A stretch of 43,141 bases of DNA from an uncultured Chthonomonadaceae bacterium (GCA_963835065.1 CAWIEK010000069.1:1-43141), one strand, 5' to 3'; shown: positions 897 through 42,111, numbered from the stretch's first letter. Numbers and translations are program-made. Notes: a model not told the origin generated them from the letters alone.

Positions 897-926
897 CTAT
901 CAACTATCAACTCTCAACTATCAACT
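897..926. repeat. Heptamer tandem repeat (TATCAAC)x4
   Basis: ctatcaactatcaactctcaactatcaact; the same unit recurs at 35393, 37903, 38480 and 39546. Confidence 0.9.
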
Positions 927-933
927 CAGGAAC

Positions 934-1079
934 GGAGGTGCAAGAAGATGCTATGTTCACTCCTCCCGTGCGCCCTGATGCTTACGAGGTCACGACGCCT
1001 CTCCTCTACAATTTGACACAACGAGACATCGGGCTGGAAGCGCTGCATTGCCAAGATTTCGACGATGCCTCTACATATC
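934..1079 (+). repeat. Dispersed ~145-bp repeat, copy 1
   Basis: Reverse-complement match to 17751-17895; the core 994-1079 has 3 mismatches in 86 bp. Confidence 0.9.
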
Positions 1080-1181
1080 CTTTTCAACTCACAGGCAGCA
1101 TTAGCAATGTCCTGGATGGTACAATCACTCCTAACACCATCTGAAGATGAAGCATGTTCGGAATACCTGCGAAAGAAGAAA

Positions 1182-2693
1182 ATGAACAAACAACCCCATC
1201 TATTCGCCTCGCCCAACCGCGCTTACTCTTCGCGCCGCGACTTTCTGCGCCTCACCGGGTCAGGCTTCGGCATGTTAGCCCTGTCCGCCCTGTTAGATCA
1301 ACAAGGCGCGAAAGCAGATACCCGGCAGCGCACACCCTCAATCGAAAATCGGCAATCGAAAATCGAAAATTCAAACACCCTGAATCCCCTCGCTGCGCAT
1401 CCCGGCCACTTTCCCGCCCGCGCCAAAAGCGTGATCTGGCTGTTTATGAACGGCGGGCCGTCACAGGTGGATACATGGGACTACAAGCCGGAACTTGCCC
1501 GGCACGACGGGCGGGAACTGAAAGGCTTCGACAAAGACACGGGCTTTTTCGTGGATCAGGTCGGGCCGCTGATGAAATCGCCGTTCGGGTTCGCGCAGCA
1601 CGGTCAGTCGGGGGCGTGGGTGTCCGATATTTTCCCCGGCATGGCGCAACATGTGGACGACATGGCGTTTATTCACAGCTGCTACACGGAAACCAACAAC
1701 CATTCGCCCGCCCTGTTTGAAATCAACACGGGCATGAACCGCATGGGCTTTCCGAGCGTGGGCGCGTGGGTCACGTATGGCCTGGGTTCCGACAGCCAGA
1801 ACCTGCCCGGTTTCGTAGTCATGTACGACACGCTGGGGAGGGGACTGCCCAAAGGCTACGCGCAAAACTGGGGCGCGGGGTTTCTGCCGGGCGTGTATCA
1901 GGGAACCGCGCTCAACGCGCAGGGAGCGCCCATCAACAATCTCGCCCGCGCTGCGCAAATGACCGACGAACAGCAGCGCGCCCAACTCAGCCTGCTTTCC
2001 CGCCTGAACCACGCGCACAGCGAACCCAATCCAGCCGACGCGGAACTGGCGGCGCGCATACAGTCGTTTGAACTCGCCTACCGGATGCAGATGGCCGCGC
2101 CCGACGCCTTAGACTTCGGCAAGGAAACGCCCGAAATCCAAAAACTATACGGACTGGATGACAAGCGGTGCGCCCACTTCGGCAAGCAGTGCCTGATGGC
2201 GCGGCGCATGGTGGAGCGGGGCGTCCGGTTTGTGCAGATTTATTCGGGCGGCGAGGAAAACGAGAAAAGCTGGGACGGGCACAGCAACATCGGCGACAAC
2301 CACCGCCAATTCGCGGGCGAAACCGACACGCCCATTGCCGGCCTGCTCACCGACCTGAAACAGCGCGGACTGTTGGAGGATACGCTCGTCATCTGGTGCG
2401 GCGAGTTCGGGCGGCTGCCGCTTGTGCAAAAGGGCGGCACGGGCCGCGACCACAATCCCCATGCCTTTACAACATGGATGGCGGGCGGTGGCGTCAAGGG
2501 CGGCGTCCACTACGGCGAAACGGACGAATTAGGCCACAAGGCCACCGTCAACCGCGTCAGCGTCAACGACCTCCACGCGACCATTCTGCACCTGCTCGGC
2601 CTGGAGCATACCAAACTAACCTACCACTTCAACAGCCGCAACTACCGCCTGACGGACGTAGCGGGCAATGTCGTTAGAGACATTCTGGCGTAA
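1182..2693 (+). CDS. DUF1501 family protein with Tat signal (sulfatase-like fold)
   Basis: SSRRDFL twin-arginine motif; family motifs AKSVIWLFMNGGPSQVDTWDYKP, ARRMVERGVRFVQ, WDGH, GEFGRLP and GRDHNP. Start chosen at ATG 1182. Confidence 0.92.
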   Translation: MNKQPHLFASPNRAYSSRRDFLRLTGSGFGMLALSALLDQQGAKADTRQRTPSIENRQSKIENSNTLNPLAAHPGHFPARAKSVIWLFMNGGPSQVDTWDYKPELARHDGRELKGFDKDTGFFVDQVGPLMKSPFGFAQHGQSGAWVSDIFPGMAQHVDDMAFIHSCYTETNNHSPALFEINTGMNRMGFPSVGAWVTYGLGSDSQNLPGFVVMYDTLGRGLPKGYAQNWGAGFLPGVYQGTALNAQGAPINNLARAAQMTDEQQRAQLSLLSRLNHAHSEPNPADAELAARIQSFELAYRMQMAAPDALDFGKETPEIQKLYGLDDKRCAHFGKQCLMARRMVERGVRFVQIYSGGEENEKSWDGHSNIGDNHRQFAGETDTPIAGLLTDLKQRGLLEDTLVIWCGEFGRLPLVQKGGTGRDHNPHAFTTWMAGGGVKGGVHYGETDELGHKATVNRVSVNDLHATILHLLGLEHTKLTYHFNSRNYRLTDVAGNVVRDILA

Positions 2694-2756
2694 GATATTC
2701 AGCCACATAAAATCGAATAGAAAGCAGAAAAGTCAGCGTGAAAGCGCGAGCCACGC

Positions 2757-3194
2757 TTGATGGAGGTAAAAACGAGCATCATGGAAACACTGTCGCAACC
2801 GAAGCGTTATTTTCCAAAGCCGGGGCGTGGATTGGCAGGCAAGAAGGTGAAGAAAACGCCTGTTCAACCTGTTCTCCCGGCAGACAACGGGCAGAGCGCG
2901 GCGTCCGGTACGCCGCCGGGATCAGCAGAAACGCAAACACAGATCGCCAACCGGCTATTCCGAGAGCGGGCCGAAAAGATTGCCGATGTAGAGGTCAGGA
3001 TACATCCCGGCGAAAATGAATGGGAACCTATCTATCTCATTCTGGTTCCCGATCTATGGAGCGCAGCCTTTGATAAGATTGTCAAGCTGCGCGGCAGTCT
3101 GTATCGCAAGTATCCTGATTCAATCTTGAACGTGGAATTGCGAGGTCAACGCGAGTTAGGCGAGTGCCCGATTACAGATATTCTCATCAGTTAG
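2757..3194 (+). CDS. Hypothetical protein, probable antitoxin partner of the downstream HEPN-like gene
   Basis: 145-aa ORF ending 16 bp before a HEPN-like ORF; two-gene TA-like layout. No diagnostic motif recognised. Confidence 0.55.
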   Translation: MMEVKTSIMETLSQPKRYFPKPGRGLAGKKVKKTPVQPVLPADNGQSAASGTPPGSAETQTQIANRLFRERAEKIADVEVRIHPGENEWEPIYLILVPDLWSAAFDKIVKLRGSLYRKYPDSILNVELRGQRELGECPITDILIS

Positions 3195-3210
3195 CCCAAG
3201 ACGGAGAACC

Positions 3211-3624
3211 ATGCCTTCCAGACAACCACCACAGCTACAGATCGGGAAGCAAGCGCGTAAGCATATTGATGGCGCGTGGGAGAACTATCAGCGTTACGAA
3301 CGCTTGCTGCAAACGCCGGAAGATGCGGGATGGGCCACCGTTGCGTTATTCTATGCCGCTCTGCATCTCGTGCAGGCCAATGCGATTGCAAAAAGCGGAC
3401 GGCTTCAGGAGCCGGTTCCCGATAATCACAACGAGCGCATCAAGTATGTGACAAAGCATTTGGGCCGTATCGAAGGGGATTATACCAGACTCGAAGAGGG
3501 AAGCAAATTTGTCCGTTATGATTTGTGGCAGCCGCCGCTGGAAGAAATCGCGCGATACCACGACATAGCATTTGCGCGTATCCGAACGCATCTTGCCGCC
3601 CAAAATATCGCGTGGAGCGAGTAG
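3211..3624 (+). CDS. HEPN-like domain protein (putative toxin)
   Basis: GGAG RBS; pattern WATVALFYAALHLVQA...HNER...Y..L...S..VRYD typical of small helical HEPN proteins. Confidence 0.65.
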   Translation: MPSRQPPQLQIGKQARKHIDGAWENYQRYERLLQTPEDAGWATVALFYAALHLVQANAIAKSGRLQEPVPDNHNERIKYVTKHLGRIEGDYTRLEEGSKFVRYDLWQPPLEEIARYHDIAFARIRTHLAAQNIAWSE

Positions 3625-3695
3625 GTGACATTAAGGCTGAACCAAACCCGTACCGGCAAGCAGGAACGGCAGAAGGAAACTGTAGGGACATAGTT

Positions 3696-4190: not shown

Positions 4191-4513
4191 GCTGTTTGCC
4201 CGGCAGGGCGCTTCGCAGCCTGCTTTTCTTGATAAACCTCGTTCCGCAAAGTCTCAAAGAGCAGAATCCAGTTCCTCATCTGATATTCCACTGGCTTCTA
4301 CCTGCCGATGAACGGGCGCTAAAATCTCTTCCAGCGAGGGTATTGGCGCAACAGAGACACCGGAAGCAGATACAGGCTGCTTGTCTGTTCTCACGTCTTT
4401 TTCTATCAGGACGCGAACATAATCTCCTATAGTGGGCGCTTTTTGCTCCATCGCTTTTCGCGTCAGTTCAGCAAGCGCTTCCTCGGACATGGTTATTTCA
4501 AAGGTGTAAGTTG
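4187..4513 (-). CDS. Putative antitoxin for the PIN toxin (frameshift near 4260)
   Basis: RHH-like N-terminus (FEITMSEEALAELTRKA...IGDYVRVLIE). A frame change after ELD gives LFETLRNEVYQEKQ...TA*, whose stop overlaps the PIN GTG start (GTGA). Start approximate. Confidence 0.6.
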
Positions 4514-4544
4514 TCAACTTCTGCTTCCTCGTTTCTTTCAATAA

Positions 4545-4864: not shown

Positions 4865-6163
4865 TTAAGGACATAGGGTTACGTTGACAGCCTGTAATGC
4901 TTCTATGTTCTTTTTGCGGTCATACCCTTCGATTAGTTGGAAGCAGACACATGCGCCCTGAACTGCTTGTTCGCGCCTACCTTTGAATGAGGCAATACTG
5001 AAGTGGTACTCCAATCCATCCTTTGTTCTAATGAAACCCGCATTTCCGTTAGGGAGAATTACTTTGATCGTTCCACACTGTCTAGGTGTGTGCGCTTCTT
5101 GCACTTCCTTCCAATAGGAAACGAGGCTGCGTTTCAAATCTCCTCTGTTTGTGTCCGAAGTCAAATTTACTTCTAACCGAGTTGCTAATTCTTGATGAGA
5201 TGCAGGCAATTTCCAACCCTCATCTGAGTAAATCTGCATTGCAAGGAGAATATGTTGTTGTGCGCGTTCAGTTTCCTGTTGTGCTTCCGATATTTCTCCA
5301 AGCAACAGGTACAATTTCCCTTTCATTTTGTCTTCGCCGTGTCCTAATGCGGCTGACACGGCAAAGACTAATGCTTCTTCTGTTCTTCCAAGATTGAACA
5401 AGAGTTCAGCCAATTCGTATTCAATGAACCATTCGCGCTTACGCCGAGCAAGTTCTTTCAGTTTCTCGATAGCTTCCTCTCGTTGGCCTGTATGAACATC
5501 ACACAGGGCGATACGCCATCGGAACCATACATCATTGTCGTAATGGAAGGAAGCAACTTTACTCAATGCCTGCTCACAAGCTTGACGACAATCATTATAC
5601 CGCTTGTGATCGAGCAGAGCCTTTGTGCGGTGCGCAAACCAAGTTTCCAAGTGAGATGCAAGCTCTCGGCGTTTTCCCGTCTCATCAGTAAAAGCGAGAC
5701 ACTCTTGCCCCAAATATTCCGGGTTTAATTTACCAAGCCATGTTAGTATGTTTGCTGCCTGTGAAGTTGGCTTGTCTTTCAAGTAATCAATAACCTTGAA
5801 GATCGTGTGCGTGTAGGGAGAATACTGATCTTGTGCAACTAAATCAAGAATAGATTTAGCAGAATGTACAAATTGTTGCTCGTTATTGCGAATTTGATCG
5901 TTCGGTATTTTAACTTCTGATGCATAAATGCACCATGCAAGCACTTGCTTTGCGCGAGCGAAATCAGGCTGTATTTCCAGCACTCGGCGACAAACGGTTT
6001 TTGCCTCCGCAAATTCACCCATTTGACGCAAGCAGTAGGCGTACCCCCATCCATCCCAAACATTGGCTTCTTCAACGCCATCATTCCAGAGTTGCTTATA
6101 AAGAGTGGCTGCCTGTTCATACTTCTTGGCCTTGCGAAGTTCATCTGGCTCTTCCATGTTCAT
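4865..6163 (-). CDS. TPR-repeat protein with C-terminal cold-shock/OB-fold domain
   Basis: Repeated helical TPR-like units (YAYCLRQMGEFAEAKTVC, YELAELLFNLGRTEEAL). C-terminus GTIKVILPNGNAGFI...YHF...VCFQL...AVNV matches the CSD pattern. ATGA overlap with the upstream gene. Confidence 0.85.
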   Translation of the reverse strand: MNMEEPDELRKAKKYEQAATLYKQLWNDGVEEANVWDGWGYAYCLRQMGEFAEAKTVCRRVLEIQPDFARAKQVLAWCIYASEVKIPNDQIRNNEQQFVHSAKSILDLVAQDQYSPYTHTIFKVIDYLKDKPTSQAANILTWLGKLNPEYLGQECLAFTDETGKRRELASHLETWFAHRTKALLDHKRYNDCRQACEQALSKVASFHYDNDVWFRWRIALCDVHTGQREEAIEKLKELARRKREWFIEYELAELLFNLGRTEEALVFAVSAALGHGEDKMKGKLYLLLGEISEAQQETERAQQHILLAMQIYSDEGWKLPASHQELATRLEVNLTSDTNRGDLKRSLVSYWKEVQEAHTPRQCGTIKVILPNGNAGFIRTKDGLEYHFSIASFKGRREQAVQGACVCFQLIEGYDRKKNIEALQAVNVTLCP

Positions 6164-6624
6164 GCCTCTTTCATCTGGTTAAAGATCGTTTCTAACTGTG
6201 GAAAGTTGAACCGTATTGCTTCCCGGTCACCAGCATTGGGGTCAACGCGCAAAATTGCATCTGCCAGTACAACAAAGTCAAACCGACAGTTTTCATACGG
6301 CTTTAGCAAAGTATGATAATGCTGGACTTCCTCAAGAGAATGAGGAGGTACAACTTCAACCGTTGCTGGTTGTTCGCAAATCCGCTTGACATCAACTTTG
6401 ACTTCGCTGTTTCTAATCTCACTATACTGTTGAGTGTAACGCTTACGATTTGGGCTGTAGTTCACTACCAGTTTCCCATAATGCTCAGAGGCTTTGCTCA
6501 GAGATAACTTTCCCATGTGATCTTGGAAAGCATCTTCAATGATGCAGGCGGTGTATCCATTGTTTTGCAATAGGCAACAGAGTTCATCTAGTTTCGCCCG
6601 CACTTCGGATTCACAGATGTACAT
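6160..6624 (-). CDS. Hypothetical protein (154 aa), middle gene of the helicase operon
   Basis: Starts 3 bp after the helicase stop and overlaps the TPR gene start by 4 bp. Confidence 0.75.
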   Translation of the reverse strand: MYICESEVRAKLDELCCLLQNNGYTACIIEDAFQDHMGKLSLSKASEHYGKLVVNYSPNRKRYTQQYSEIRNSEVKVDVKRICEQPATVEVVPPHSLEEVQHYHTLLKPYENCRFDFVVLADAILRVDPNAGDREAIRFNFPQLETIFNQMKEA

Positions 6625-6627
6625 GAC

Positions 6628-9600
6628 CTATTGTTCCTTAATACCCTTACCCTCAACGCTCTTGAAGCGCAACAGATCAAATTGCATTCTGGCAAATGCT
6701 TGTTTGTCTTCCTTAGATTTTATGCTACCTGTTCCGTTCAGCGTGTTCACGAACCAATCAGCAGAACATTGAATTTGGAGGTATGCACACTCTGGCAAGA
6801 ACTCTAATCGTGCCGCTCTGGAAATCAACTCGAAAGCGTTTGCGGTGTAGCTACCTGTATCGAGAGAGATGTACTCCTTTCCAGAATTCAGCGAAGTCAT
6901 TTTGTGAGGATCACCCAATTTCATTTTGAATACCAATGAACTGGATGAGAGTACAGAGGCAGACGAAAGCGAAGGTTCAAACGTGTTTTTGCCCAACAAG
7001 TAGCCTGCTACCATCAGTGCGGCCTTTTTGCTGACTGGGCCTGTTTGGAACTGTGAGCTGTAGCTCTTCAGACAGGCATAACAACCATTTTCGCATGGGC
7101 AGTTACTCATCGTTTCATAGGCATAACTAATCGTCTCCTTAAGTTCAGCATATATTTTATTGATTGGAACGTTGCCATTTCCATCAAAGTCGTACAAGAG
7201 TACGTAAATCCAATTTTCAGCATCGGATTCTGGCAACATATCCGTTCGAAGCCGTAGGTCGCCTTCACTCAGCCTGAATCTGCTGACAATAGCGCGTTCA
7301 AGCGAACTGACAAAACTCATGCAGTTTTTCTTATCGTGGTTTATCTCTTCTGGAAAGGAAAGCACGATAGCATTACGTAAGATGTCATACCCAAGACAGA
7401 ATAATTCTCCAGTTTCGTCATCTTTGAATGGAAGTAAGGGTTCACCGTGCTGCACTTTACCCATGTTACGAAAGGACAAAATACCTTGATTGATAAGGCC
7501 AGTACGCATTACTTTGCCCCCGTCAGTCTCGTCAAACTCATCAGATACGCTGGATGATAAGAAGGAGCGTTTGAACTCATATACGATCTTCAGTTTGTCT
7601 TTTGGAGGTTGCTCATGTTTTCGGGCATCAAGAATTTGGTAGCTACGAATACTGGTGGAATCAAAGGTGTCAAATTCACCTCGACTGGTTAGCGTGTAGA
7701 TGCCATCTGCAAAGTAGGTAGTTGCACCCGGTACGAATTTCTGTATTGCTACTTCGGGTTCTCGCTCAGATAAGGCATATTCCCGATATTCAATATCCTG
7801 ATGTGGTTTTCTTCGGCTATGCTCTTCGTCTGCTGTCTTGTAATCAACGACATATACCATGTCATGACGAAATCCATGATCTGGATAGAAGCCAGCACTG
7901 TAGAACCACTGCTGCGGTCCTTTATTACCTCTTTTAATCTCTTTCAGTTTGGCAAGAGCATCTTTGTATGCTTCTTCAAATAATTTCTCAAATTCTTCAT
8001 CATTCTCAGTAAACAAGCCACCAAAAACTTCATAAGCGCGTTTTGCGCGAGCAGGAACATTGGCCGGATTGTAGTTAGTTCCATCGCCAACCGGATGGAC
8101 GAGAGCGTATATATGACGCATAATAACACTACGAAGTGCCGGGTCGAAGTGCGGTGGCGACACGACTCCGGCAATCATTTTGGTTGGCTGCTGGAAGTAG
8201 AAAAGATCGTGTTCATTGTCATCGCTGCAAAAGGTGACGATCAGCGCGGAATTGTCCCCATTTCCGCGTCCTGCCCGTCCTGCCCGCTGAATGTAGTTGG
8301 AGGGCATAGGAGGAACGCCGATCAGCAGAATGTCACGCAATTTGCCGATGTCAATTCCCATTTCAAGAGTTGGAGTTGACAGAATACAGTTCACGGACCC
8401 TTCTCTAATTCCCTTTTCGATCTTTTCACGTTGCTCGTTTTGCACTTCAGAACTATGAAGGGCAGCGACAAGAAGATATTTGTCTTTGAGTTCTTTGTAA
8501 TCAGCGACATCCGGCTTAGACAATCTAAGCCCAACACATTCCGGGTTTAGTTGATAACGCTTCTTACCGGCAGGAGTATCAGGAGTTTCAATCAGCATTC
8601 CCTTACGCAAAAGATCTTGGATGATATTCCGAAATTTTTTCAACGCCCAATCTGCTGACCAGTTCCTTGTATTCAAAGGCTTGTTCGCCAAGCGAGATGC
8701 TTGCGTGTGTTTGTGACTCCCAACGGTCCTCTGAACGGCAATAAAGGCTCTTGATTGTTTTTGCACTGGACAGGCGAAAACGGATGAAGTCAGAACACAA
8801 CTCGTTCAGCCATCTTTCATCCTTACGCCAGGGCATGCTTATCGCGCGTTCAGAAAGGAAGGCATTTAGCACTTCTGCTTCGGCGTCATTCAGGTTGAGG
8901 TTGGGACTCAACTCAAGTACATCTTGCTTGCCTGATTTGCGCGGTAACTCTCCGATGTAGCGGGAGTACCAGAGTGAAAATTCGCTAAAGATAGTCTTCT
9001 CAGTGTCCGTCATGGACTCCTGTGAAGGTACGTTTTGCTGTAAACGTTCAAATGCAGTCTGAAGGCCGCAGTCTTTTACTTGTTCGTGACAGAGTTCCAA
9101 GAACTTCTGTAAAAATTTATCGGCAAACTCATCCTTCAGGATACTTGTTTGACGTGATGCAATCTCGCGGTTATCAACGAAAGCGAGTAACTTCTTCTCT
9201 TGCAGGGGGCGGAAAGCAAGCAGTCCATCAACGAGACAGAACATATATTGATAGTCTTTGGTGGCTTGATAGTCTTTGGTGGTAAAGGTCAGGGGTATGA
9301 GGTTTTTGCGTACTTCCTCATAATTCAGAAAAGGAGCCACTTCAAGGTTCATCTTGCCATTTGCATCGGGAGCAAGTTCAAAGCCTCTATCGCGTGAGAT
9401 CAGCACGTCGTTGAATGTCATTAATCCATTGGAGCCAGCATCTTGTTCAGATTCGCCAGACTGCGGATCAGTTGAAATCAGAACATAGTAGATAATCTTT
9501 GATTCATCAGATTCAGCCGTCAGTGTGGCACGTAAACGCCTGTTGCTGATTTTACCAATGCATTTCTTGATGTCGTCCTTGTACACATTGAACAAAGGGG

Positions 9601-11026
9601 AACCACAATCATCGCAAAATTCCGATGCGCCCGAATGGTAGCGGTGACAGTGCAGGCATCTTTTGAGGGTGCCACTGAGTTTCTTTAGAAATAAGTGGAC
9701 ACGAAAATCAAGAATAGGTTCTTTGCCTGAATTGACGTTCAGAAAAGAGGCTGCTGACAAATACGCTCTGACAACTTTATCTGCTGACAATCCCCTAATT
9801 GCTTCCACGCAATCGTTCTCCATCATTGCAGCCAACCCGGAAACAGAGCATGGCGCAACCTTCATCTTCTCACGGATGCATTGAAATATGGGATTGGTGT
9901 ACATTGCTTGGTAAGCAACGGTTTGGCGAACATCGCTGCTATCGGATGTGGGGAATTCTTTCTCGTTCAACTCCCTGCCAGCCAGCGTACTCAAGAACGC
10001 GCAAACTTGTTCGATGCTTGGATTTGGCATACTTGCTTCATCAATAATCCCGGCAGGCAATGCAGGCATCGTGGCTAATGTAGGCATTGTTTCTTGTTCA
10101 AATTGCGGTTCGACAAGAGTATAGTCCTGAATGTCCAAAAGAGGATGAATGAAATCGTCTGGACGTTCATTGTCGCCGTCATTCTCACTGCTACTTGATA
10201 AGGTGGCACTACAAGCAATATGTAGTGGAGTTGTGTTCGCCTGTGCCTTTAGCCTACGTAACAAGCACTTAATGTGAGTTGCCTTTGCGCCACGATAAAC
10301 ATGAGCCTCATCCAGAACGACGAAGCGTAAGGATTTGGAGAACAGGCCGCTATCCTCAGGCCGCGTTAAAAGATAGTCCAACATAACATGGTTTGTTATC
10401 AGAATGTTAGGCCTATTGGCGCGTATTTCTTCGCGCGTTACAAGATGATTGCTTGACAGGCGTACTGGAGGATTCTTTTCTTGAAATTTATTCGGCGTTG
10501 CCCCCGTGTAACATGCAAAAGTCAACTTGGTATCGCGTAGTTTATCGCCGATACGCCGTATTTGATCGTTTGCTAAAGCGTTCATGGGGTATATGATGAT
10601 TGCTTGAACGCCCTCAATTTGGTGACGCAGGCAATCCTCCATTATTGGAAGCAGGAACGCTTCTGTTTTCCCACTGCCCGTTCCTGTTGCAATAACTGTA
10701 TCTTTCGGCGGCGTACCTTCCGACCCTAAAATAGACTGGATAGCCTGTTCTTGATGTGCATAAAGATGCGTGTATTCCGAAAACTTGTTTTGTACTTCCG
10801 TTGAAATGTTGCATCTTCTGCAAAACTCCCTGAAGGAAGTACCTTTCTCATATTTGCGATTGAGCGTTAAAAACAGCCTCTTATCTACTTGTAGCGACTT
10901 AGCAATTTCACCAATGGTATCATCAGACAGTTCAGAAGCAGCAAGGGTGTCGCGCACAAGTTGATTGTAGCGATCATCAATTAACTCTGTGGCGGCAAAT
11001 AGTGGATTGTTAATCAAGTCCTGCAT
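6628..11026 (-). CDS. Large SF2 DEAH helicase with DUF1998 (MrfA/Hrq1-like) Zn domain, ~1465 aa, split by one extra base in an A6 run near 8635-8640
   Basis: Motifs Q (LYAHQEQAI), I (GTGSGKT), Ia (YPMNALANDQ), II (DEAH), III (SAT), CxxC...CxxC, V (TLEMGIDIG), VI (QRAGRAGR) and DUF1998-type CPCENGCYACL. Removing one A from GAAAAAATTT joins ORFs 8603-11026 and 6628-8766. Confidence 0.92.
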
Positions 11027-17720: not shown

Positions 17721-17750
17721 AATTTATTAGAACAGGCTTAAAGCAGGAAT

Positions 17751-17895
17751 GATATGTAGAGGCAGCGTCGAAATCTTGGCAATGCAGCGCTTCCAGCCCG
17801 CTGTCTCGTTGTGTCAAATTGTAGAAGAGAGGCGTCATGGCCTCCGCAGCGTCAGGGCGAACGGGAGGGGTGTGGGGACATAGGACTGCACCTCC
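17751..17895 (-). repeat. Dispersed ~145-bp repeat, copy 2, followed by (GGGGTCA)x3 at 17907-17929
   Basis: Reverse complement of 934-1079. Confidence 0.9.
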
Positions 17896-18068
17896 CTTCT
17901 TAAGCAGTGGTCAGGGGTCAGGGGTCAGGAACTGCGAGCGTTCCGGCTAGCCTTTCCCTGAACAGTAGACGTTTGTACTACTATTTAGACGGAGGTGTGG
18001 GGCAAAGGTTTCGTTTGTTTCGCGTTGTTTGGCTCTTTTTTATCTTTTCTAGGAAAGGAGGCTTCTTT

Positions 18069-21088: not shown

Positions 21089-21136
21089 ATCCACTCCAAA
21101 AGTCACTATTCAGCCCTTGTCAACATTTGAGAATAG

Positions 21137-21179
21137 CCCCTCTCCTATGCTTTTTGGGAGAGGGGTTGGGGTGAGGGCT
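21137..21179. repeat. REP-like hairpin
   Basis: CCCCTCTCC-tatgctttttg-GGAGAGGGG followed by ttggggtgagggc; inverted relative of 17676-17720. Confidence 0.7.
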
Positions 21180-21194
21180 GAAGTGACAGATCAA

Positions 21195-23370: not shown

Positions 23371-23677
23371 AAACCACGGGGAACACGGAGAAGGAGAAAG
23401 ACGGGGATTGGGAACCGCGAAACACACGAACTAAACGAAAAGAGGCGAAAAGAAATAGACAGGATTAACGGGATTAGAAGGATTAAACAGGATTACGAAC
23501 TGAGAAGAGAAGCCTGTTTGTTCGGAACACAGGGGGCAGTTGCGGATTTACCTGAATTTATTTAGTCTTTTTCGTTTATTTCGTGTGTTTAGCGGTTCCT
23601 AATCCCCATCTTCTCCTTCCCCGTGTTCCCCGTGTTCCCCGTGGTTTACTTTGTTCTTCTCCGTGTTCTCCGTGGTT
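23371..23677. repeat. Nested inverted-repeat element built from 9-nt units
   Basis: AAACCACGGGGAACACGGAG pairs with (CCCCGTGTT)n CCCCGTGGTTT; GGGGATTGGGAACCGCGAAACACACGAACTAAACGAAAAGA pairs with 23566-23607; a central AGGATTAAC-like array. Confidence 0.88.
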
Positions 23678-24168: not shown

Positions 24169-24291
24169 AGGAAGTAGTCAGTAGCCAGTAGTCAGTAGTC
24201 AGTAGAGATACCTGTCTACTCAAAATTTGTACAACAGTAACAGCTTGCAAGAAAGGATTTTCTACTGACTACTGGCTACTGACTACTTCCT
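24169..24291. repeat. Palindromic heptamer element (AGTAGTC)n-loop-(GACTACT)n
   Basis: Fills almost all of the dnaJ-hspR gap; homologous to 33306-33428. Confidence 0.92.
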
Positions 24292-25397: not shown

Positions 25398-25515
25398 GGG
25401 ATGAGATAAGGGATAAGAGAAACCCTGCTGATGGGCTTGTTTCCATTCTTGTTTCTATTGAAGAAGAGATACCAACAGTGTAGATTCTCTTATCTCTTAT
25501 GCTCTTATCTCATCC

Positions 25516-25516: not shown

Positions 25517-27421
<1,905 letters not shown>

Positions 27422-27530: not shown

Positions 27531-27666
27531 GAAGATAAGAGATAAGAGATAAGAGAAGGACAGGGTTCATCCTGCATATTCATCCTTATCTAACTCCCAC
27601 TACGAATTTACCGATAATCACAACACTCTGGTTATTCATAACTCTTATCTCTTATCTCTTATCTTC
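27531..27666. repeat. Palindromic heptamer element (GATAAGA)n-loop-(TCTTATC)n
   Basis: Perfect 25-bp arms at 27531-27555 and 27642-27666, between divergent genes. Confidence 0.92.
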
Positions 27667-29977: not shown

Positions 29978-30016
29978 AAAACCCTCTCCTGCCACATAAT
30001 ATGGCAGGAGAGGGGT
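29976..30016. terminator. Hairpin between convergent genes (terminator/REP-like)
   Basis: 13-bp stem CCCTCTCCTGCCA/TGGCAGGAGAGGG, preceded by an A run that forms a U tract on the minus strand. Confidence 0.7.
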
Positions 30017-30043
30017 ATGTCCACAAGTGGACGCCCGGTGAGG

Positions 30044-33305: not shown

Positions 33306-33428
33306 AAGTAGTCAGTAGCCAGTAGTCAGTAGTCAGTAGAAATACCTGTTCACTCCAAGCAGTTGGGCACAGGAAGCGCCTGTAAGAACGGGTTCTACTG
33401 ACTACTGACTACTGGCTACTGACTACTT
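33306..33428. repeat. Palindromic heptamer element (AGTAGTC)n-loop-(GACTACT)n
   Basis: Perfect 36-bp arms at 33306-33341 and 33393-33428; the right arm supplies the TAG stop of the reductase gene. Confidence 0.95.
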
Positions 33429-34496: not shown

Positions 34497-34736
34497 GCTT
34501 GCTGTTTCCTTCCAATTCCGTTGCTTACTTCTTTAGTCTTACTCGTCGCTTCTTCGCCGGACTTTCCCGCGCTTGCCGCGCAAGCCGGATCGTCCCAACA
34601 TTCTGTTCCAACAGAATGTTGTATCACATATTCAACCTTAATTGTGGCACAATCGGCGGTTTGTCCGCTGTGTTTTCGGCAAAAATAATAGCGCAGGCGC
34701 TCCCATCGGTGGGAAGCCTGCGCTTTCTTTCCATCC

Positions 34737-35021
34737 GGGCAGTTGCAGTCAGAAACAACCTACCAACATGGTGTAGCGCATGGCTGCAGCCGCGAGTGGT
34801 TCGAGAACGGACGACTGAAAAGCGAAACTTATTACGAATATTCCGTTCCTGTCTATGCCAAAGTTTGGAATGAGGCAGGCCAATTAGTCAGCGATTACAC
34901 GCTTGGGAAAGACGAGCCTGCTTCTTCCTTATTGCAGTCGTTCCGCAGTTTCTATGGGGATGCCGGAGCAGAGTCAAGTCACAAAGACAAAGCGCTGCAA
35001 GAACAACTGGCAAATGTCTAA
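34737..35021 (+). pseudogene. Fragment of a MORN-variant repeat (YwqK-like) protein
   Basis: GQLQSETTYQHGVAHGCSREWFENGRLKSE...WNEAGQL; no convincing start codon or RBS. Confidence 0.55.
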
Positions 35022-35055
35022 ACTAATGTGACGGCGATTCGGATTTGAAGATTGT

Positions 35056-35084
35056 TTGACAAAGCGGCGAACATAGCCCATAAT
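35056..35084 (+). promoter_or_regulatory. Sigma70-type promoter of the T-box/valS leader
   Basis: TTGACA-17 nt-CATAAT. Confidence 0.75.
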
Positions 35085-35107
35085 AAGAGAAGGATTTTTG
35101 TTTTGCA

Positions 35108-35370
35108 GTGGCAATGAAGGAGAAGAGTAAGCGCGGGCCGGGTTCCAGAGAGGGAGGGGTTGGTGGAAACCTCCTGACCCATGCCGCGCTGAACGTCGCT
35201 CTGGAGCCGCGCCGGGTGCGCCCGTTATCGCGCGTTCGAGTGTCCGCAAGCCGCCCGCTCTGGTGCCGGTCTGCGGAAAGGAAGGTGGTACCGCGCGCCG
35301 CGCCTGATGTCACGTCAGCGCCCGCGTCCTTCCGGCAATCACTGGCCGGGGGCGCGGGCGCTTTTGCGTT
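35108..35370 (+). ncRNA. T-box riboswitch with Val specifier (GUC)
   Basis: AGTA, AGAGA and GGTGGAA stem I motifs; GAAC-GTC specifier at 35195-35197; CCGTTA F-box; AAGGTGGTACCGCG T-box at 35282-35295; terminator GCGCCCGCG...CGCGGGCGC-TTTT; valS downstream. Confidence 0.92.
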
Positions 35371-35392
35371 TGGCTGTCCCTTCGGCGCTAAA

Positions 35393-35442
35393 CAGTTGAT
35401 AGTTGATAGTTCGTAGTTGACAGCAAGGCAGGAACTACGAAC
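35393..35442. repeat. Heptamer element (GTTGATA)n with a short counter-arm
   Basis: cagttgatagttgatagttcgtagttga...gaactacgaact, between the T-box terminator and the valS start. Confidence 0.85.
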
Positions 35443-35482
35443 TTTTAGCGCCCTTCCACTTAGATACGCACCGGAGAAAACC

Positions 35483-38477
<2,995 letters not shown>

Positions 38478-38479
38478 GG

Positions 38480-38574
38480 GTTGATAGTTGATAGTTGATA
38501 GTTCATGCTACGGCAAATATGCTGGCAATGGGCACAAGCATTAGGAAGATGCAGGGAACTATCAACTATCAACT
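38480..38574. repeat. Palindromic heptamer element (GTTGATA)n-loop-(TATCAAC)n
   Basis: Fills the gap between the convergent stops of valS and the M48 gene. Confidence 0.9.
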
Positions 38575-38576
38575 TT

Positions 38577-39482
38577 TTACTTGACGCCGTACCGATAATC
38601 TTTGTTGTCAATGATGGCTTGCGCTTTGTCAATGCGGGCCTGGGTAACGGGGTGGTCACGCAGCCATTCGGGGTCGCCGCCGCCCTGCCGGTGTTCCAGC
38701 CGCGCCAGTTTGTCGAAGAAATGCACCATGCCGTTCGGGTCGTAGCCCGCTTCCGCCGCATAGGAAAGCCCGCGCCGATCCGCCTCGTATTCGTCGTCGC
38801 GGCTGTATTTCAAGCCCACGACGCCCGCGCCCAATCCGGCAAGCTGATTGTACGTCGGGTTGGGAATGAAGATATTGATGAGCAGGCTGGTGGTGATGCT
38901 GGAAGACAATTGGCGGGCGGCATGGCGCGCGGCCACATGCCCGCACTCATGCCCCAGGACGCAGGCCAGCGCGTCGTCATCATCCCCCATCATGTCGAGC
39001 AGGCCGCGAAACACATAAACGGGGCCGCCGGGCAGGGAAAAGGCGTTGATATCTTTCACGTCCAGCACTTTGAACGTGTAATTGATGCCGGGGCGATCCA
39101 GGTGCGGCAACAGGCGTTGCCCGATGGCGCGAACCCGGTCCGCATCCGGGGATTTGGTATCCACGCGAAACTGCTGCTCCACTTCGCGGGACGCTTCCTT
39201 GCCCAAATTGATTTCCTGCTTGGTGGAAAGGAAACTCTTGGTGCGGCAGCCGGTCAAGCCGCTCAAAGCAGCAAGGGTAATACATGCCGGAATCAGGCGC
39301 GTCCATCGGGAGGAACGAACGCAACACGTGGCAGAAGTATTGACAGGCGTTGCGGGGAACAACGCGCCAAAAGGATTGCAAGCGGGGAGGGTCTTGCGCA
39401 GAAATGAGAAAGAAACACGCATGAAAGGCCAAACCTCACTTTCAGCAATGCGGGAAAAACGATCAAACAAAAGCGCCTGCAA
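38577..39482 (-). CDS. M48 family zinc metallopeptidase, probable lipoprotein (start uncertain, likely downstream of 39482)
   Basis: INAFSLPGG, LACVLGHECGHV (HExxH), YSRDDEYEAD, GYDP and DHP; lipobox LTGC. Confidence 0.9.
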   Translation of the reverse strand: MQALLFDRFSRIAESEVWPFMRVSFSFLRKTLPACNPFGALFPATPVNTSATCCVRSSRWTRLIPACITLAALSGLTGCRTKSFLSTKQEINLGKEASREVEQQFRVDTKSPDADRVRAIGQRLLPHLDRPGINYTFKVLDVKDINAFSLPGGPVYVFRGLLDMMGDDDDALACVLGHECGHVAARHAARQLSSSITTSLLINIFIPNPTYNQLAGLGAGVVGLKYSRDDEYEADRRGLSYAAEAGYDPNGMVHFFDKLARLEHRQGGGDPEWLRDHPVTQARIDKAQAIIDNKDYRYGVK

Positions 39483-39551
39483 GAAATCACGCCGAAATTA
39501 TGTTCGAGGCATCAACAATATAACCAACCACCAGCCACCAATTTCTATCAA

Positions 39552-40935
39552 CTACGAACTATCAACTATCAACTGCTTACTTCGCCCCTGATGTTCGGCA
39601 AAGGCTTTGGCGCGCAGTTCGACATAACGTTCCACGCGGTTGAGGGCGAATCCTGCCCGCCCCGGCAATTCTCCCAAACCGCCCAACTTTTCATGCGAAC
39701 GCAGCAGCAGCAGGCGGTGATTGACGCGCTCTTCGGGCAGCCAGCGATATTTGTAACCCTCGTTGCCGCGCAAAAAGTCGAACTCCGTACAGCCTTCTTC
39801 GATGGCCTGCCGAATTGCTTTGCCGGTCAGCAGCGTGCCCAAACTGTATTTGCTGAGTTCCGGCGCGAACCCACCCAAATAATAGAATGTGCGCCCGCCC
39901 CACATAAAGCAGTACAAGGCGGCGCGAATGGTTCCGTCTACAGTGAGCAGATGCAGGCGCAGCCAATCGCTTGCCAAAAACGCGCGGGCGACATCGCGGT
40001 GAAACGCCTGTACGCGCTTGCTTCCCAACACCCCCGGCAGCCAGCGCGCGTTCCAGCGTTTCTGGTGCAAATCAAACAACGCCGTCATTCCCGCTTCCAA
40101 TGTCTGCTCATCGGCGCAATGAAAGCGTACATTTTCAAACGTTTTATCCAGCAGGCGTTCATAGTAGCCCAGATTGGAGCGCATTTTTTTACTCAGCCGC
40201 GCCGTCAGCGTCTTCCAATCCGCAGGCAACGTCAGATACGGACAAGGCTCCATCGGCAAGGAGGTTGAGGGGGAAGAAAGTGATGAGTGATGAGTGATGA
40301 GTGATGAATGGGATTCTAATTCATCATTCATCATTCCGCGTTCAGCATTTCCTGCTGTTCCCTGTTCCCTGTTCCCTGTTCCCTGTTCTTATCTCTTGAC
40401 CCCTGACCCCTGACCCCTGACCCCTCTGCTGCGTCAGCAGCGGACAATCGGCGCGTAATTGCTGCAAGTCGGCCATGTCCCAGCCGCGCAATTCTTCCCG
40501 GATGTAATGGCAGAGGGCGTGGGCGGCGGCGGCTTCCCATTCGGGCAGGACAAGCGGGCCGAGATAATCGCTTTGCCCGGTTCCGATCCAGGCGAGGCGT
40601 CGCAGGGGCGTTCCTAAATGAAAACTGGTGTAAAAGGGCGCGATCCCAATAAGGACTTCGGCACGGGAACCACTATTTTGCTGAAATGGCGTGGATACCG
40701 CCGGCTCAACAAGAAAGGCCGCTTCGCCATCTGTGCCGCGTGTTGCCGCCTCCGCCGCAGACGCCCAAAACAACAGGATACGGGGGCGCTTACGCGCTCC
40801 AAAATGCCGCCACCAGGCCGCGTTCCATTCCCACGTTTGGAACGGCGTTGCCTGCGGGCATTGCGCTTGAAGCGCGCGCCACTGCCGCTCCAGCGTATTC
40901 AGAGCCTCACGCTCACTGATTTCCACGATCCTCAA
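39552..40935 (-). CDS. GNAT family acetyltransferase (CelD/BcsL-like), split inside a repeat insert
   Basis: N-half TPFQTWEW..AWW.HF...GIAPF...SDYLG; C-half LFDLHQKRW...YYLGGF...YSLG...FDFLRGNEGYKYRW. The frame break lies within the 40279-40425 repeat block. Confidence 0.88.
40279..40425 (-). repeat. Composite heptamer insert in the GNAT gene: (GGGGTCA)n-(GGGAACA)n-70-bp module
   Basis: Directly visible tandem units; includes the module shared with valS. Confidence 0.93.
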
Positions 40936-41047
40936 TGCGCTTCCATCCTCCCCGATTTCCCTTGCGCCTGAAGCGTCCGCGCTTCATCGTCAGGCAATTA
41001 TATCATCTTTCGGCGTTGCTTGTCCATGCCGGCTTGACTCTCACCCC

Positions 41048-41076
41048 TTGACGCTCCTTCACGTTTCTGCTACAAT
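41048..41076 (+). promoter_or_regulatory. Sigma70-type promoter
   Basis: TTGACG-17 nt-TACAAT with an extended TG, 33 bp before the ATG at 41110. Confidence 0.65.
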
Positions 41077-41109
41077 TCGCGCAATTGTTTCGTAGGAAGG
41101 TTCTTTATC

Positions 41110-42111
41110 ATGTCTGCCGCCTCTGTCACGCCAAACGCCGCGCCGCCAATCACAGCGCGCGCTATTACCAAAGCCGTTGTTCCCGCCGCCGGGTTGGGAA
41201 CGCGCCTGCGCCCGCTGACGCGCGCCTTTCCTAAAGAACTGCTGCCGGTCGGACGCGAACCTGTGTTGTCGTATATCGCAACGGAACTGCGCGAATCGGG
41301 CATTACGGAAGTTCTCTTCATCGTTTCCGACAGCAAGCCGCAAATACGGGATTTTTTCGGCAACGTTTATGAAGGTGAGCGTCCCGACCTGCCGCCCCTG
41401 AATTGCGAGTATGTCACGCAGCGCGAACAGCGCGGTTCCGGCGACGCCCTGCTGTACGCGCAGGAATGGGTTGCGGACGCGCCCTTTGTTGTGGCGTTTG
41501 GGGACTGCATTATTGAGGGAACAGGGAACAGGGAAAAGGGAACAGAAGAGGAAGCAGAAGACAGAAGACAGAAGACAGAAGCAACACTTACCTATGGGAG
41601 AACTGTTCCCTGTTCCCTGTTCTCTGTTCCCTTACAGCGCCTCATCGCCACGCACCGCGAACAGCAATCCGAAGCGACGGTGCTGGTGGAGCGGGTGGAG
41701 CGGGCGAAGGTATCGCGGTATGGCGTGGTTGCGCCCCGTATGGTGTTGACGGAAGTTCCTACTGAGCCGTTTGCCTTAGCCGACATTGTGGAAAAACCTC
41801 GCGTGCAGGACGCGCCGAGCGATCTGGTGATTGCGGCGCGCTGGGCGCTGAACCCTTCGGTATTTGTTTTGCTGCGGGAAACCACGTTGGATGCGCGGGG
41901 CGAGCGCAACATCACGGATGCGGTACGCGCGCTTGGGCAGTTGGGAAAGCCGTTGTGGGCCGTGCCCCTGCGTCCCGGCGAAGCGCGGCGCGACATCGGC
42001 AACTTTGAAAGTTTTTTCGCGCAGTTCGTGCGGGCGGCCTTGCGGGATGCGGAATTCGGCAACGCCGCCCGTCAGGTGGCGCGGGAAGAACTGAACCGAG
42101 AAGAGGAATAA
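41110..42111 (+). CDS. Sugar-phosphate nucleotidyltransferase (GalU-like) with an in-frame repeat insert
   Basis: KAVVPAAGLGTRLRPLTRAFPKELLPV, Q..QRGSGDA, FVVAFGD, SRYGVV, IVEKP, ITDA and DIG. Confidence 0.9.
   Translation: MSAASVTPNAAPPITARAITKAVVPAAGLGTRLRPLTRAFPKELLPVGREPVLSYIATELRESGITEVLFIVSDSKPQIRDFFGNVYEGERPDLPPLNCEYVTQREQRGSGDALLYAQEWVADAPFVVAFGDCIIEGTGNREKGTEEEAEDRRQKTEATLTYGRTVPCSLFSVPLQRLIATHREQQSEATVLVERVERAKVSRYGVVAPRMVLTEVPTEPFALADIVEKPRVQDAPSDLVIAARWALNPSVFVLLRETTLDARGERNITDAVRALGQLGKPLWAVPLRPGEARRDIGNFESFFAQFVRAALRDAEFGNAARQVAREELNREEE
41515..41632 (+). repeat. Palindromic composite insert (GGGAACA)n-(AGACAGA)n-loop-(TGTTCCC)n
   Basis: Encodes EGTGNREKGTEEEAEDRRQKTEATLTYGRTVPCSLFSVP directly after the GD motif. 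Confidence 0.92.

What the first reader, a model, noticed from the sequence alone, without database searches (positions are those of the whole stretch)
897..41632. A family of modular heptamer-armed palindromic elements occupying gene ends and protein loops
Seen: about 15 short elements use at least eight different 7-nt units (TATCAAC, AATCGAA, GGGGTCA, AGTAGTC, GATAAGA, TCATCAC, GGGAACA, AGACAGA) plus 9-nt variants. Most share one architecture: a mainly purine-rich tandem arm, a loop of up to ~90 nt, then the reverse-complement arm. Different units are also chained into composites. Intergenic copies start within about 3 nt of a stop codon (dnaK, dnaJ, valS, M48) or supply it (reductase, GNAT). 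Coding copies use only stop-free readings. No transposase is in the window. Known partial precedents: cyanobacterial STRR heptamers, Rickettsia palindromic elements inserted in-frame in genes, and, from memory, similar arms around four-helix-bundle and GxxExxY genes. Inference: many unrelated sequences sharing period and geometry are hard to explain by slippage alone. They may be cargo-free forms of a dedicated mobile or recombination system that also creates new peptide sequence.
Basis: partly seen in the sequence, partly recalled or inferred. Interest (0 to 1): 0.88.

Follow-up and report, generated by a model that had tools for sequence, protein, structure and literature searches.

The report
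Hairpin cassettes that swap repeat arms
This bacterium's genome holds about 900 hairpin-shaped inserts built from short 7-base repeats, and close relatives keep an insert at the same spot but built from a different repeat, sometimes around a small gene, which points to a likely undescribed copy-and-replace system that also puts repeat-coded peptide stretches into over 200 predicted proteins.

Summary
Confirmed. The window is a contig of an 8-Mb Chthonomonadales genome with 3,359 period-7/8 arrays and 895 two-armed hairpins. Polarity is fixed (1,591 vs 4). Arrays peak at four units and almost never reach five, unlike slippage microsatellites. The same arms enclose this genome's four-helix-bundle genes (7/8-mers) and GxxExxY nuclease genes (9/10-mers).

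The main new result is in-place replacement. At 59 orthologous sites in a congener, 38 hold a hairpin of another unit, 2 the same unit, 7 nothing. Strain haplotypes inside the assembly (92-99.7% flanks) differ by whole arms, and at one site by gene-bearing cassette versus gene-less hairpin. Wobble pairs and loop orientation show no preference for the mRNA strand. Over 200 genes, valS included, carry in-frame modules.

Best reading: non-autonomous forms of a shape-defined cassette whose arms are rewritten at DNA level by copying from other arms, then re-paired by template switching. The trigger is inferred, not shown.

Inverted heptamer pairs are published for Xanthomonas. This scan noted the gene-plus-arms design before in at least 12 other genomes. 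My ten paper searches found no report of the cassette link or of arm swapping.

The parts
880..926 (+). Short hairpin: degenerate GTTGATA-type arm (880-893), 3-nt loop, CTATCAA array (897-926); lies inside a copy of a ~300-nt repeat (774-1085)
   Evidence: fold z -3.3
1339..1370 (+). Lone 3'-type AATCGAA/AATCGGC module in frame in the N-terminal region of a DUF1501 gene (reads SIENRQSKIEN)
17905..17929 (-). CAGGGGT array at the matching position of a second copy of the ~300-nt repeat (17748-18048)
23372..23677 (.). Nested gene-less element of the 9/10-mer class (outer ACACGG(A/G)G arms as around the C39 GxxExxY gene; inner ACCGCG.. and CAGGATTA modules) between an ECF sigma gene and a MerR gene; outer arms kept in G001 and G002, interior differs
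   Evidence: fold z -9.3
24169..24291 (.). CAGTAGT hairpin directly after the dnaJ stop; CAGGTGT arms in G002, TTGTTTG-type arms in G001
25400..25515 (.). GATAAGA hairpin filling the dnaK-dnaJ gap from the dnaK stop; GATACGA in G002, AGAAAGG in G001
27531..27666 (.). GATAAGA hairpin (86-nt loop) in the divergent gap between the dnaK promoter region and an EAL gene; GATAGGA type in G002; no array seen in G001 (one flank anchored)
33306..33428 (.). CAGTAGT hairpin that supplies the TAG of the pyridine-nucleotide oxidoreductase gene; no arm next to this gene in G001 or G002
35394..35420 (+). GTTGATA arm with only a short partial partner, upstream of valS
36884..36954 (+). In-frame GATGAAT/TCATCAC hairpin in valS (about aa 468-491); other units in frame at this spot in G001 and G002; segment shorter in 22 measured outside sequences
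37817..37924 (+). In-frame chain CAGGGAA + CAGAAGA + CTATCAA in valS (about aa 779-814), unpaired; replaced by other units in G001 and G002
38471..38582 (.). GTTGATA hairpin between the convergent valS and M48 peptidase stops; loop differs by 11 substitutions and 3 gaps in the C43 haplotype with flanks 0.2% different
39523..39574 (-). Unpaired two-module chain (GTTGATA + GGTGGTT on the minus strand) that supplies the GNAT gene's TAG
40275..40425 (-). In-frame chain CAGGGGT + CAGGGAA + GATGAAT/TCATCAC hairpin inside one GNAT-family gene (about 39552-40935)
41516..41632 (+). In-frame CAGGGAA hairpin with an inner CAGAAGA module in a nucleotidyltransferase gene; GGGAAAA/GGGAAGA + GATACGA in G002

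Best explanation
These are gene-less forms of a shape-defined cassette (a G-rich arm of about four and a half 7-8-base units, a loop or a small gene, then the complementary arm) whose arms are replaced in place, likely by DNA copying from other arms in the genome followed by arm-to-arm template switching. Shown: the architecture, the fixed polarity, the cap below five units, shared arms with four-helix-bundle and GxxExxY genes, same-site unit replacement between species and between haplotypes, single-arm replacement, and mirrored variants in the two arms. Inferred: (1) the inverted arms extrude as a hairpin or cruciform and are cut near the centre, by the GxxExxY PD-(D/E)XK nuclease or by host SbcCD; (2) the G-rich 3' ends prime on any of ~3,000 other arms through a few shared bases and copy inward, bringing in one module, a chain, a whole element or a cargo gene, which keeps polarity by descent; (3) fold-back synthesis makes the second arm complementary; (4) selection keeps elements that sit between a stop codon and the next ribosome-binding site, or in tolerant protein loops, where unmatched stop-free halves persist.
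For: Polarity 1,591 vs 4; partner within 250 nt for 1,597 of 3,359 arrays, against 37 in one displaced window each. Exact copies for the 12 commonest units: 2:780, 3:416, 4:563, 5:22, 6:1, 7:1. G002: 38 of 59 orthologous sites have a hairpin of another unit, 2 the same unit, 7 are empty; units are closer than random (2.7 vs 3.4 +/- 0.13 edits). G002's commonest unit GATACGA stands opposite at least 8 different G000 units. Haplotypes: CGGGTGT vs AAAAGGAG arms around a partly shared loop with flanks 99.7/98.0%; cassette vs gene-less TAGGCAT hairpin with flanks 96.9/99.7%. Left arm alone replaced at the C19 GxxExxY gene. Mirrored variants 55% vs 31 +/- 2%. G.U 296 vs A.C 309 on the mRNA strand in 400 tight co-directional elements; loop orientation 29 vs 28. 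Arms 97% pure, loops 53% alike. Different-unit neighbours 5'-then-3' 415 vs reverse 9 (many are one-letter variants). GxxExxY has invariant D63, E73, K75, Q87 and a PD-(D/E)XK fold. SbcD is present. Template switching is known to homogenise arms and invert spacers (PMC8604942, abstract).
Against: No donor locus was found for the changed loops (valS-end, C36, C61, C37). Outer modules are purer than inner ones (105 vs 55 of 209 pairs), the reverse of 'newest at the centre'. GxxExxY genes go with 9/10-mer arms, while most elements are 7/8-mers whose cargo is the four-helix-bundle protein, which has no known catalytic role. G001 has 7/8-mer elements and no PF05635 hit. Many relatives carry cassettes without an expansion in the stretches sampled. 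Swapped haplotype sites often have one flank at 92-97%, so the allele may come from a sister population and be older than the 99% figure suggests. The model does not explain why the period is 7 or why arrays stop below five units. No activity was measured.
Confidence: 0.55

Rival explanations
1. Domesticated RNA hairpins: the stems are kept because they act on transcripts (RNase III sites, stabilisers or spacers between operon genes, as in 23S rRNA intervening sequences), and the sequence turns over under selection for pairing.
For: Sites are kept while sequence changes. 650 of 818 intergenic elements are in co-directional gaps (background 3,351 of 4,807) and 452 of 762 end within -12..+6 of a stop (null 297 +/- 10). 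RNase III is present. Lone arrays show the G-rich reading on the mRNA 64 vs 34 times. Coxiella's S23p-bearing IVS is cut by RNase III in a 28-bp stem (PMC4990558, passages).
Against: No G.U excess on the mRNA strand (296 vs 309; wide gaps 144 vs 204; inside ORFs 10 vs 91). No U-tract (17 of 650). Loop orientation is random. Only 93 of 451 coding arrays are paired. It offers no route for cassette/gene-less exchange between haplotypes.
Confidence: 0.15
2. Templated de novo repeat addition: a polymerase or reverse transcriptase, helped by the Avd-like pentameric four-helix-bundle protein, adds just under five units to each G-rich 3' end at a central break, telomerase-fashion.
For: Sharp cap at 33-34 nt for heptamers. 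G-rich strands point to the centre in 57 of 58 metagenome cassettes, with 42 different units. The cargo protein hits the Avd model weakly and matches PDB 2GSC, five chains. Avd is a pentamer that binds an RNA stem-loop with all five protomers (10.1101/2023.10.23.563531, passages). Changed loops lack donors.
Against: The two RT genes are a group II-like one beside cas1-like pieces and a retron-like one in another operon. Array-rich G003 has no RT hit (79% complete). No adenine bias in loops. No template RNA was identified. Octamer and 9/10-mer arms are also about 27-38 nt, which fits a length limit as well as a unit count.
Confidence: 0.15
3. Ordinary long heptamer microsatellites that arise and drift locally by slippage, with template switching making the second arm; no exchange between sites.
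For: Heptamer repeats are over-represented in many bacteria and slippage was proposed (Mrazek 2007 as cited in PMC4692102). Orthologous units are somewhat related. Mixed arms such as AGGCATT/AGGCATC look like drift intermediates.
Against: Peak at four units and cliff at five. One unit-length indel among 103 arrays in 244 kb of haplotype duplicates. Unrelated units swap at ~99% flank identity. About 100 CAGTAGT elements share a 54-62-nt loop family. MutS matches in 31 of 31 genomes. The arms travel with two gene families across taxa.
Confidence: 0.08
4. Classical MITEs or REPINs mobilised by a transposase elsewhere in the genome, inserting repeatedly at hot spots.
For: Filled and empty sites exist; nested inner elements are gained or lost in loops; inverted ends.
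Against: No conserved terminal sequence across the 7/8-mer families. No target duplication seen by eye at about a dozen filled/empty pairs (flanks only ~80-85% alike). Single arms are replaced with gene and other arm kept. The gene that looks like an IS200/RAYT transposase by its sequence is flanked by an unrelated palindrome (not scanned with a profile).
Confidence: 0.07

Closest known systems
Xanthomonas GGGAATC and Nostoc GGGGA(C/T)T heptamer repeats (Rehm et al. 2015, PMC4692102; passages and section 10 read); cyanobacterial STRR (as cited there)
   Same: Heptamer tandem arrays, mostly four units, 70-75 convergent inverted pairs per Xanthomonas genome, close to the upstream ORF, rare between divergent genes.
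   Different: One dominant unit read as a G-quadruplex; about 185 arrays against 3,359 here with dozens of units. The paper's main text has no mention of helix-bundle, GxxExxY, XCC0516 or transposase (supplements not read). No unit replacement at kept sites was seen in the parts read.
23S rRNA intervening sequences with an S23p / four-helix-bundle ORF (PMC4990558, passages; PF05635, TIGR02436)
   Same: Small ORF of the same protein family in the loop of a ~30-bp stem; patchy distribution.
   Different: Here the cassettes lie between or inside protein genes, the stems are tandem-repeat arrays, nearly all copies are gene-less, and there is no sign of selection on the RNA strand.
Rickettsia palindromic elements (review PMC10969869, passage)
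   Same: Palindromic DNA inserted in frame in unrelated housekeeping genes, adding peptide.
   Different: RPEs are ~150-bp sequence families with a conserved peptide. Here the inserts are chains of ~31-nt modules, mostly unpaired, in 215-240 genes, and their sequence is replaced while the site is kept.
MITEs and REP/REPIN-RAYT systems (review PMC10969869, passages; REPIN paper PMC3116915, search listing only)
   Same: Short non-autonomous inverted-repeat elements in hundreds of copies, mainly intergenic, with rarer gene-bearing forms.
   Different: No shared end sequence, no target duplication seen, cargo genes are not transposases, single arms are exchanged.
Quasi-palindrome template switching (PMC8604942, abstract)
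   Same: Arm homogenisation, spacer inversion, multi-base changes in coding DNA.
   Different: Acts within one locus; does not by itself move units or cargo between sites or set arm length.
Diversity-generating retroelements (Avd; 10.1101/2023.10.23.563531, passages)
   Same: Cargo protein is distantly similar to Avd (below cut-off).
   Different: No linked RT, no template/variable repeat pair seen, no adenine bias.

Membership tests
Xanthomonas/Nostoc-type long heptamer repeats (STRR, LSSR7) | Tandem heptamer arrays far above chance, modal four units | tested here: met
   compare
Xanthomonas/Nostoc-type long heptamer repeats (STRR, LSSR7) | Inverted pairs close to the upstream stop, depleted between divergent genes | tested here: met
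Xanthomonas/Nostoc-type long heptamer repeats (STRR, LSSR7) | One dominant G-tract unit able to form a quadruplex | tested here: not met
   Dozens of units; most common ones (GTTGATA, AGGCATT, AGTAGTC) have no GGG
Slippage microsatellite / contingency locus | Frequent unit-number change, smoothly decaying length distribution | tested here: not met
   1 unit indel in 103 arrays; 563 four-copy vs 22 five-copy runs
23S rRNA IVS with S23p ORF | PF05635 ORF inside terminal inverted repeats | tested here: met
   3 of 3 genes in G000; 11 of 13 in relatives; 58 of 71 metagenome loci
23S rRNA IVS with S23p ORF | Located inside a 23S rRNA gene | tested here: not met
   The three G000 cassettes lie between protein-coding genes; no Rfam hit in the window
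23S rRNA IVS with S23p ORF | Excised from RNA by RNase III | not testable with these tools
   RNase III gene present; no RNA data
MITE | Conserved terminal inverted repeats shared among copies and with a transposase element | tested here: not met
   Arms differ by unit among copies and between haplotypes; genes between arms are PF05635, PF13366 and a few others
MITE | Target-site duplication | tested here: inconclusive
   None seen by eye in filled/empty alignments; flanks ~80-85% identical, so short duplications could be eroded
REP/REPIN-RAYT | RAYT transposase flanked by the same repeats | tested here: inconclusive
   A TnpA-looking gene (C42:76421) is flanked by a different palindrome; no profile search for RAYT was run
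Rickettsia palindromic elements | In-frame insertion in unrelated genes | tested here: met
Rickettsia palindromic elements | Conserved ~150-bp palindrome encoding a conserved peptide | tested here: not met
   17 of 18 orthologous coding inserts share no unit; 93 of 451 are paired
Diversity-generating retroelement | Adenine-specific variation | tested here: not met
   Column conservation A 0.76, C 0.67, T 0.74, G 0.70 in 74 loops
Diversity-generating retroelement | RT gene beside avd | tested here: not met
   Both RT genes are on other contigs than the three PF05635 genes, in other contexts
Holliday-junction-resolvase-like nuclease (for the GxxExxY cargo) | PD-(D/E)XK fold with intact site; junction cleavage | tested here: inconclusive
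   Fold and residues met. Best matches tie below Z 8: Cas4 SSO0001 Z 7.8 (rmsd 3.3, 96 aligned), Hjc Z 6.8 (rmsd 3.1, 84 aligned); no Foldseek match at E<=0.001. Substrate untested.

The most novel reading that the evidence does not exclude
A cross-phylum class of mobile cassette defined by geometry rather than sequence: ~31-nt polar repeat modules act as interchangeable recombination arms that a small nuclease and a pentameric Avd-like protein cut, measure and rewrite. Genes, hairpins and peptide modules are swapped among thousands of sites without a transposase, and in this genus the system has become a genome-wide source of replaceable protein loops, even in valyl-tRNA synthetase. It would also account for the long-noted excess of heptamer repeats in bacteria.
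Probability: 0.4. Interest if true: 0.93.

Novelty: categorically new. Interest (0 to 1): 0.83.

Why it matters
The excess of heptamer repeats in bacteria is a long-standing unexplained observation, and the GxxExxY family (16,752 representatives at 50% identity) and the four-helix-bundle family have no assigned function. This genome ties the three together and gives concrete, testable substrates: named sites where cassette, gene-less hairpin and empty state alternate among close relatives. If the arms are swapped by an enzyme, it is a transposase-free way of moving small genes and of exchanging 10-40 residue loops in over 200 proteins. If host repair does it alone, it is a striking case of molecular drive on structure instead of sequence. 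It also explains recurrent low-complexity peptides (GTGNREQ, STINYQL, SLITHHS) that annotation would read as protein motifs.

Tried and rejected
RNA expression: no RNA holder listed; this is no evidence either way. DNA contigs of four runs laid on the window showed ~96-97% relatives whose contigs stop at or run on unlike into several elements, but the letters were not displayed, so I draw nothing from it. Rfam: no hit in the window. Intrinsic terminators: rejected, U-tract after 17 of 650 stems. DGR-type mutagenesis: rejected. Loss of mismatch repair as cause of the expansion: MutS matches in 31 of 31 genomes. NHEJ: Ku not found in G000-G002. RT link: RT in 12 of 31 genomes, not tracking array density. 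'Inner modules are younger': the test went the other way. General loop hypermutation: 16 of 17 haplotype loop pairs have 0-2 substitutions; one has 11, which could be an imported allele or a consensus artefact. Donor search for changed loops: none. Solved relatives of GxxExxY by sequence: none. A plasmid tblastn with ValS gave no useful taxonomy. Paper searches: 0 hits for heptamer + tandem repeat + four helix bundle + inverted and for four helix bundle protein + 23S rRNA intervening sequence + repeats; GxxExxY in 3 papers, 2 listed; the one read had an incidental mention; some searches gave the precedents cited. The library lacks most subscription journals; no supplements were read. Limits of my counts: gene calls come from my own hexamer caller, which mis-called some window genes; array counts include the assembly's duplicated stretches (~3%); only 828 kb of G002 and ~430 kb of G001 were compared; other genomes were sampled at 3-45 kb each.

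Full report
**Source.** The window is the whole of contig C69 of an 8.0-Mb, 57% GC assembly. Its ValS is 66-73% identical to Chthonomonadales records, so the organism is an Armatimonadota. Two genomes of the same genus were available, G002 (ValS 87%) and G001 (79%).

The window has 25 period-7 TRF rows against 0 in each of 20 shuffles. All six stop-codon statements are correct. Genome-wide there are 1,330 exact heptamer arrays of three or more copies and 123 octamer arrays, against none in a Markov simulation. With mismatches allowed there are 3,359 period-7/8 arrays, 1.3% of the genome, plus about 250 arrays of a 9/10-mer class. They form 1,819 clusters.

**Architecture.** 1,597 of 3,359 arrays have an inverted partner within 250 nt; a displaced control window gives 37. 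Merging gives 895 two-armed elements, median 115 nt. Of 818 intergenic ones, 650 are in co-directional gaps and 56 in divergent gaps (background 3,351 and 807 of 4,807). 452 of 762 end within -12..+6 of a stop, against 297 +/- 10 for random placement in the same gaps (my own gene caller). Arm length is capped: exact heptamer runs peak at 30-33 nt and fall to 9 at 35 nt; for the top 12 units there are 563 four-copy runs and 22 five-copy runs. G002 peaks at the same length, and Xanthomonas arrays are also mostly four units (PMC4692102 section 10), so the mode is unlikely to be an assembly artefact.

**Cargo.** All three four-helix-bundle genes (PF05635) lie between arms of three different 7/8-mer units. 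All three GxxExxY genes (PF13366) lie between 9-mer-type arms, one pair mismatched. In relatives, 11 of 13 and 18 of 20 such genes have inverted arms. Over own and related loci the period is 7 or 8 for 14 of 16 four-helix-bundle genes and 9 or 10 for 17 of 23 GxxExxY genes. In metagenomes, 58 of 71 four-helix-bundle loci with enough flank (9 of 80 dropped for short flanks) have arms, against 5% for cross-locus pairs; 50 have period 7, with 42 different units, and 57 have the G-rich arm first. A few other genes sit between arms in G000. GxxExxY keeps invariant D, ExK and Q residues and folds confidently as a PD-(D/E)XK nuclease; Cas4 and Hjc are among tied matches below Z 8. The four-helix-bundle protein matches 2GSC and, weakly, Avd.

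**The site stays, the sequence is replaced.** After dnaJ the arms are CAGTAGT here, CAGGTGT in G002 and TTGTTTG-type in G001; after dnaK they are GATAAGA, GATACGA and AGAAAGG. In 828 kb of G002, 59 unique orthologous sites gave 38 hairpins of another unit, 2 of the same unit, 6 unpaired arrays, 4 hairpins without a 7/8-mer array, 7 empty and 2 other. The reverse search gave 46 arrays, 4 of the other class and 4 short or empty among 54. In G001, 30 sites gave 8 array hairpins (one keeping the unit), 2 arrays, 3 other hairpins, 9 empty and 8 other. Density is about 420 per Mb in G000 and 290 in G002 (score >=36); at score >=40 it is 60 in G001, 227 in G003 and 0-28 in small samples of 25 others. 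One site is a four-helix-bundle cassette in G000, a gene-less GATACGA hairpin in G002 and empty in G001; another is a cassette in G000 and empty in both. At the C19 GxxExxY gene only the left arm differs from G002. Some 'empty' sites keep a one-unit stub beside the ribosome-binding site, and nested inner elements come and go in loops. I saw no target duplication.

**Swaps between haplotypes.** The assembly holds ~244 kb of duplicated stretches at 91-99% identity. Of 62 anchored site pairs (some counted twice), 48 are the same. Five distinct sites show replaced arms or elements (C36/C61, C25/C37, C50/C70, C32/C63, C23/C8), two more are partial or doubtful, and the rest are small differences. 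C36/C61 has CGGGTGT versus AAAAGGAG arms around a partly shared loop, flanks 99.7/98.0%. C25/C37 is cassette versus gene-less hairpin. Change is all-or-none: paired arms inside aligned blocks show 0 substitutions in 892 nt against 2.4% for intergenic DNA, and only 1 of 103 arrays differs by a unit. Caveat: swapped sites often have one flank at 92-97%, so alleles may be imported from a sister population.

**DNA, not RNA, symmetry.** Oriented to the mRNA, 400 tight co-directional elements have 296 G.U and 309 A.C mismatches (p 0.63); a stem selected as RNA should favour G.U. Inside ORFs the ratio is 10 to 91, so coding stems are weaker on the mRNA. Loops of the CAGTAGT family point either way (29 vs 28). 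Variants in one arm are mirrored in the other in 55% of cases against 31% for arms of other same-unit elements. These loops are homologous, 54-62 nt, but only 53% alike, while their arms are 97% pure: old loops, young arms.

**Proteins.** 451 family arrays lie inside 215 genes with coding signal on both sides; a looser count gives 277 clusters in 240 genes. Most are unpaired chains of a 5'-type module followed by a different 3'-type module. Of 20 orthologous coding sites, 18 hold arrays in G002, 17 of them sharing no unit; 18 keep the frame. Both ValS inserts are confined to the genus: the first segment is 58, 74 and 67 aa in the three genomes and 27-44 aa in 22 others measured (two more could not be measured by the pattern and carry other short inserts). 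Translation of these peptides is predicted, not shown.

**Mechanism.** I commit at 0.55 to in-place replacement by DNA copying: hairpin or cruciform, central cut (GxxExxY or host SbcCD), priming of G-rich ends on other arms, inward copying, then fold-back repair of the partner arm. It accounts for polarity, lineage-specific unit pools, hybrids, nesting and cargo exchange. It does not explain the period, the cap, the missing donors for changed loops or the purer outer modules. RNA function (0.15), telomerase-like addition with a pentamer as ruler (0.15; the telomerase comparison is from my own knowledge), local slippage (0.08) and transposase-driven MITEs (0.07) are the rivals.

**What is known.** Rehm et al. 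describe the same geometry for one unit in Xanthomonas and read it as quadruplex DNA. Rickettsia elements insert in frame. rRNA intervening sequences carry the same small ORF. Template switching homogenises arms. None of these families' defining features is fully met. Earlier notes of this scan record the gene-plus-arms design in at least 12 other genomes and different heptamers at one protein linker; they are leads, not support. What this genome adds is the direct evidence of arm and cargo exchange at fixed sites, the length cap and the strand-symmetry test.

**Verdict.** Real, large in scale, and not a member of any family I could test. Interest 0.83.

Noticed in passing
window 774-1085 (+) and 17748-18048 (-); 162 blastn hits genome-wide: A separate ~300-nt repeat: ECF-like promoter motif (GAAC-N16/17-GTCTAA, consensus recalled), variable spacer with or without a heptamer hairpin (52 CTATCAA, 50 short, 8 with CTAACAA/AAACCCT, 1 TGACCCC), a Shine-Dalgarno with a very short ORF, then a ~100-nt core 91% alike among copies ending before a T-rich run. 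No Rfam hit. Found only in the three genus genomes of 31 searched. Possibly an unknown small RNA or mobile element; deserves its own study.
   Followed up: partly
window 1-291: End of a CRISPR array, ~30-nt repeat with ~35-nt spacers, at the contig edge.
   Followed up: no
window 4865-11026 (-): Locus with DEAD helicase, Helicase_C plus MrfA Zn-binding domain and a TPR/DUF7017 gene, candidate defence island; the helicase may be split by a frameshift. No heptamer arrays in it.
   Followed up: no
window 21135-21180 and 29980-30015: A different short palindrome family (CCCCTCTCC...GGAGAGGGG) with many hits in G002; a similar palindrome sits in frame in the ValS loop of G013.
   Followed up: no
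window 38500-38560 vs G000:C43:70745: Loop of the valS-end hairpin differs by 11 substitutions and 3 gaps in 53 nt, mostly purine-to-pyrimidine, with identical arms and flanks 0.2% different; no donor found.
   Followed up: partly
window 34600-43141 vs G000:C43:66163-74692: 98.5% duplicate; one of about 29 contig pairs showing that the assembly mixes strain haplotypes and carries indel errors (GNAT at ~40390; probably dnaK near 27150).
   Followed up: partly
G000:C24:82671-83577: A TAGGCAT arm followed by a MazF-like toxin-antitoxin pair (by sequence appearance) where G002 has a four-helix-bundle cassette.
   Followed up: partly
G000:C70:4941-5528, C9:133534-134886, C12:75935-76189 and C12:70655-70909: Other genes enclosed by matching arms: a 195-aa nucleotidyltransferase-looking protein (10-mer arms), a 450-aa membrane protein (9-mer arms), an 84-aa protein in two copies. 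Not profiled.
   Followed up: no
window 25552-27165 (+): Long antisense ORF to dnaK matching Pfam NAD-GH, a known shadow-frame artefact (recalled).
   Followed up: no
G000:C49:677687-678569: CAGTAGT hairpins fill gaps even inside a ribosomal-protein operon.
   Followed up: no
L380-L384: Five viral contigs encode a four-helix-bundle relative; their flanks were not examined.
   Followed up: no
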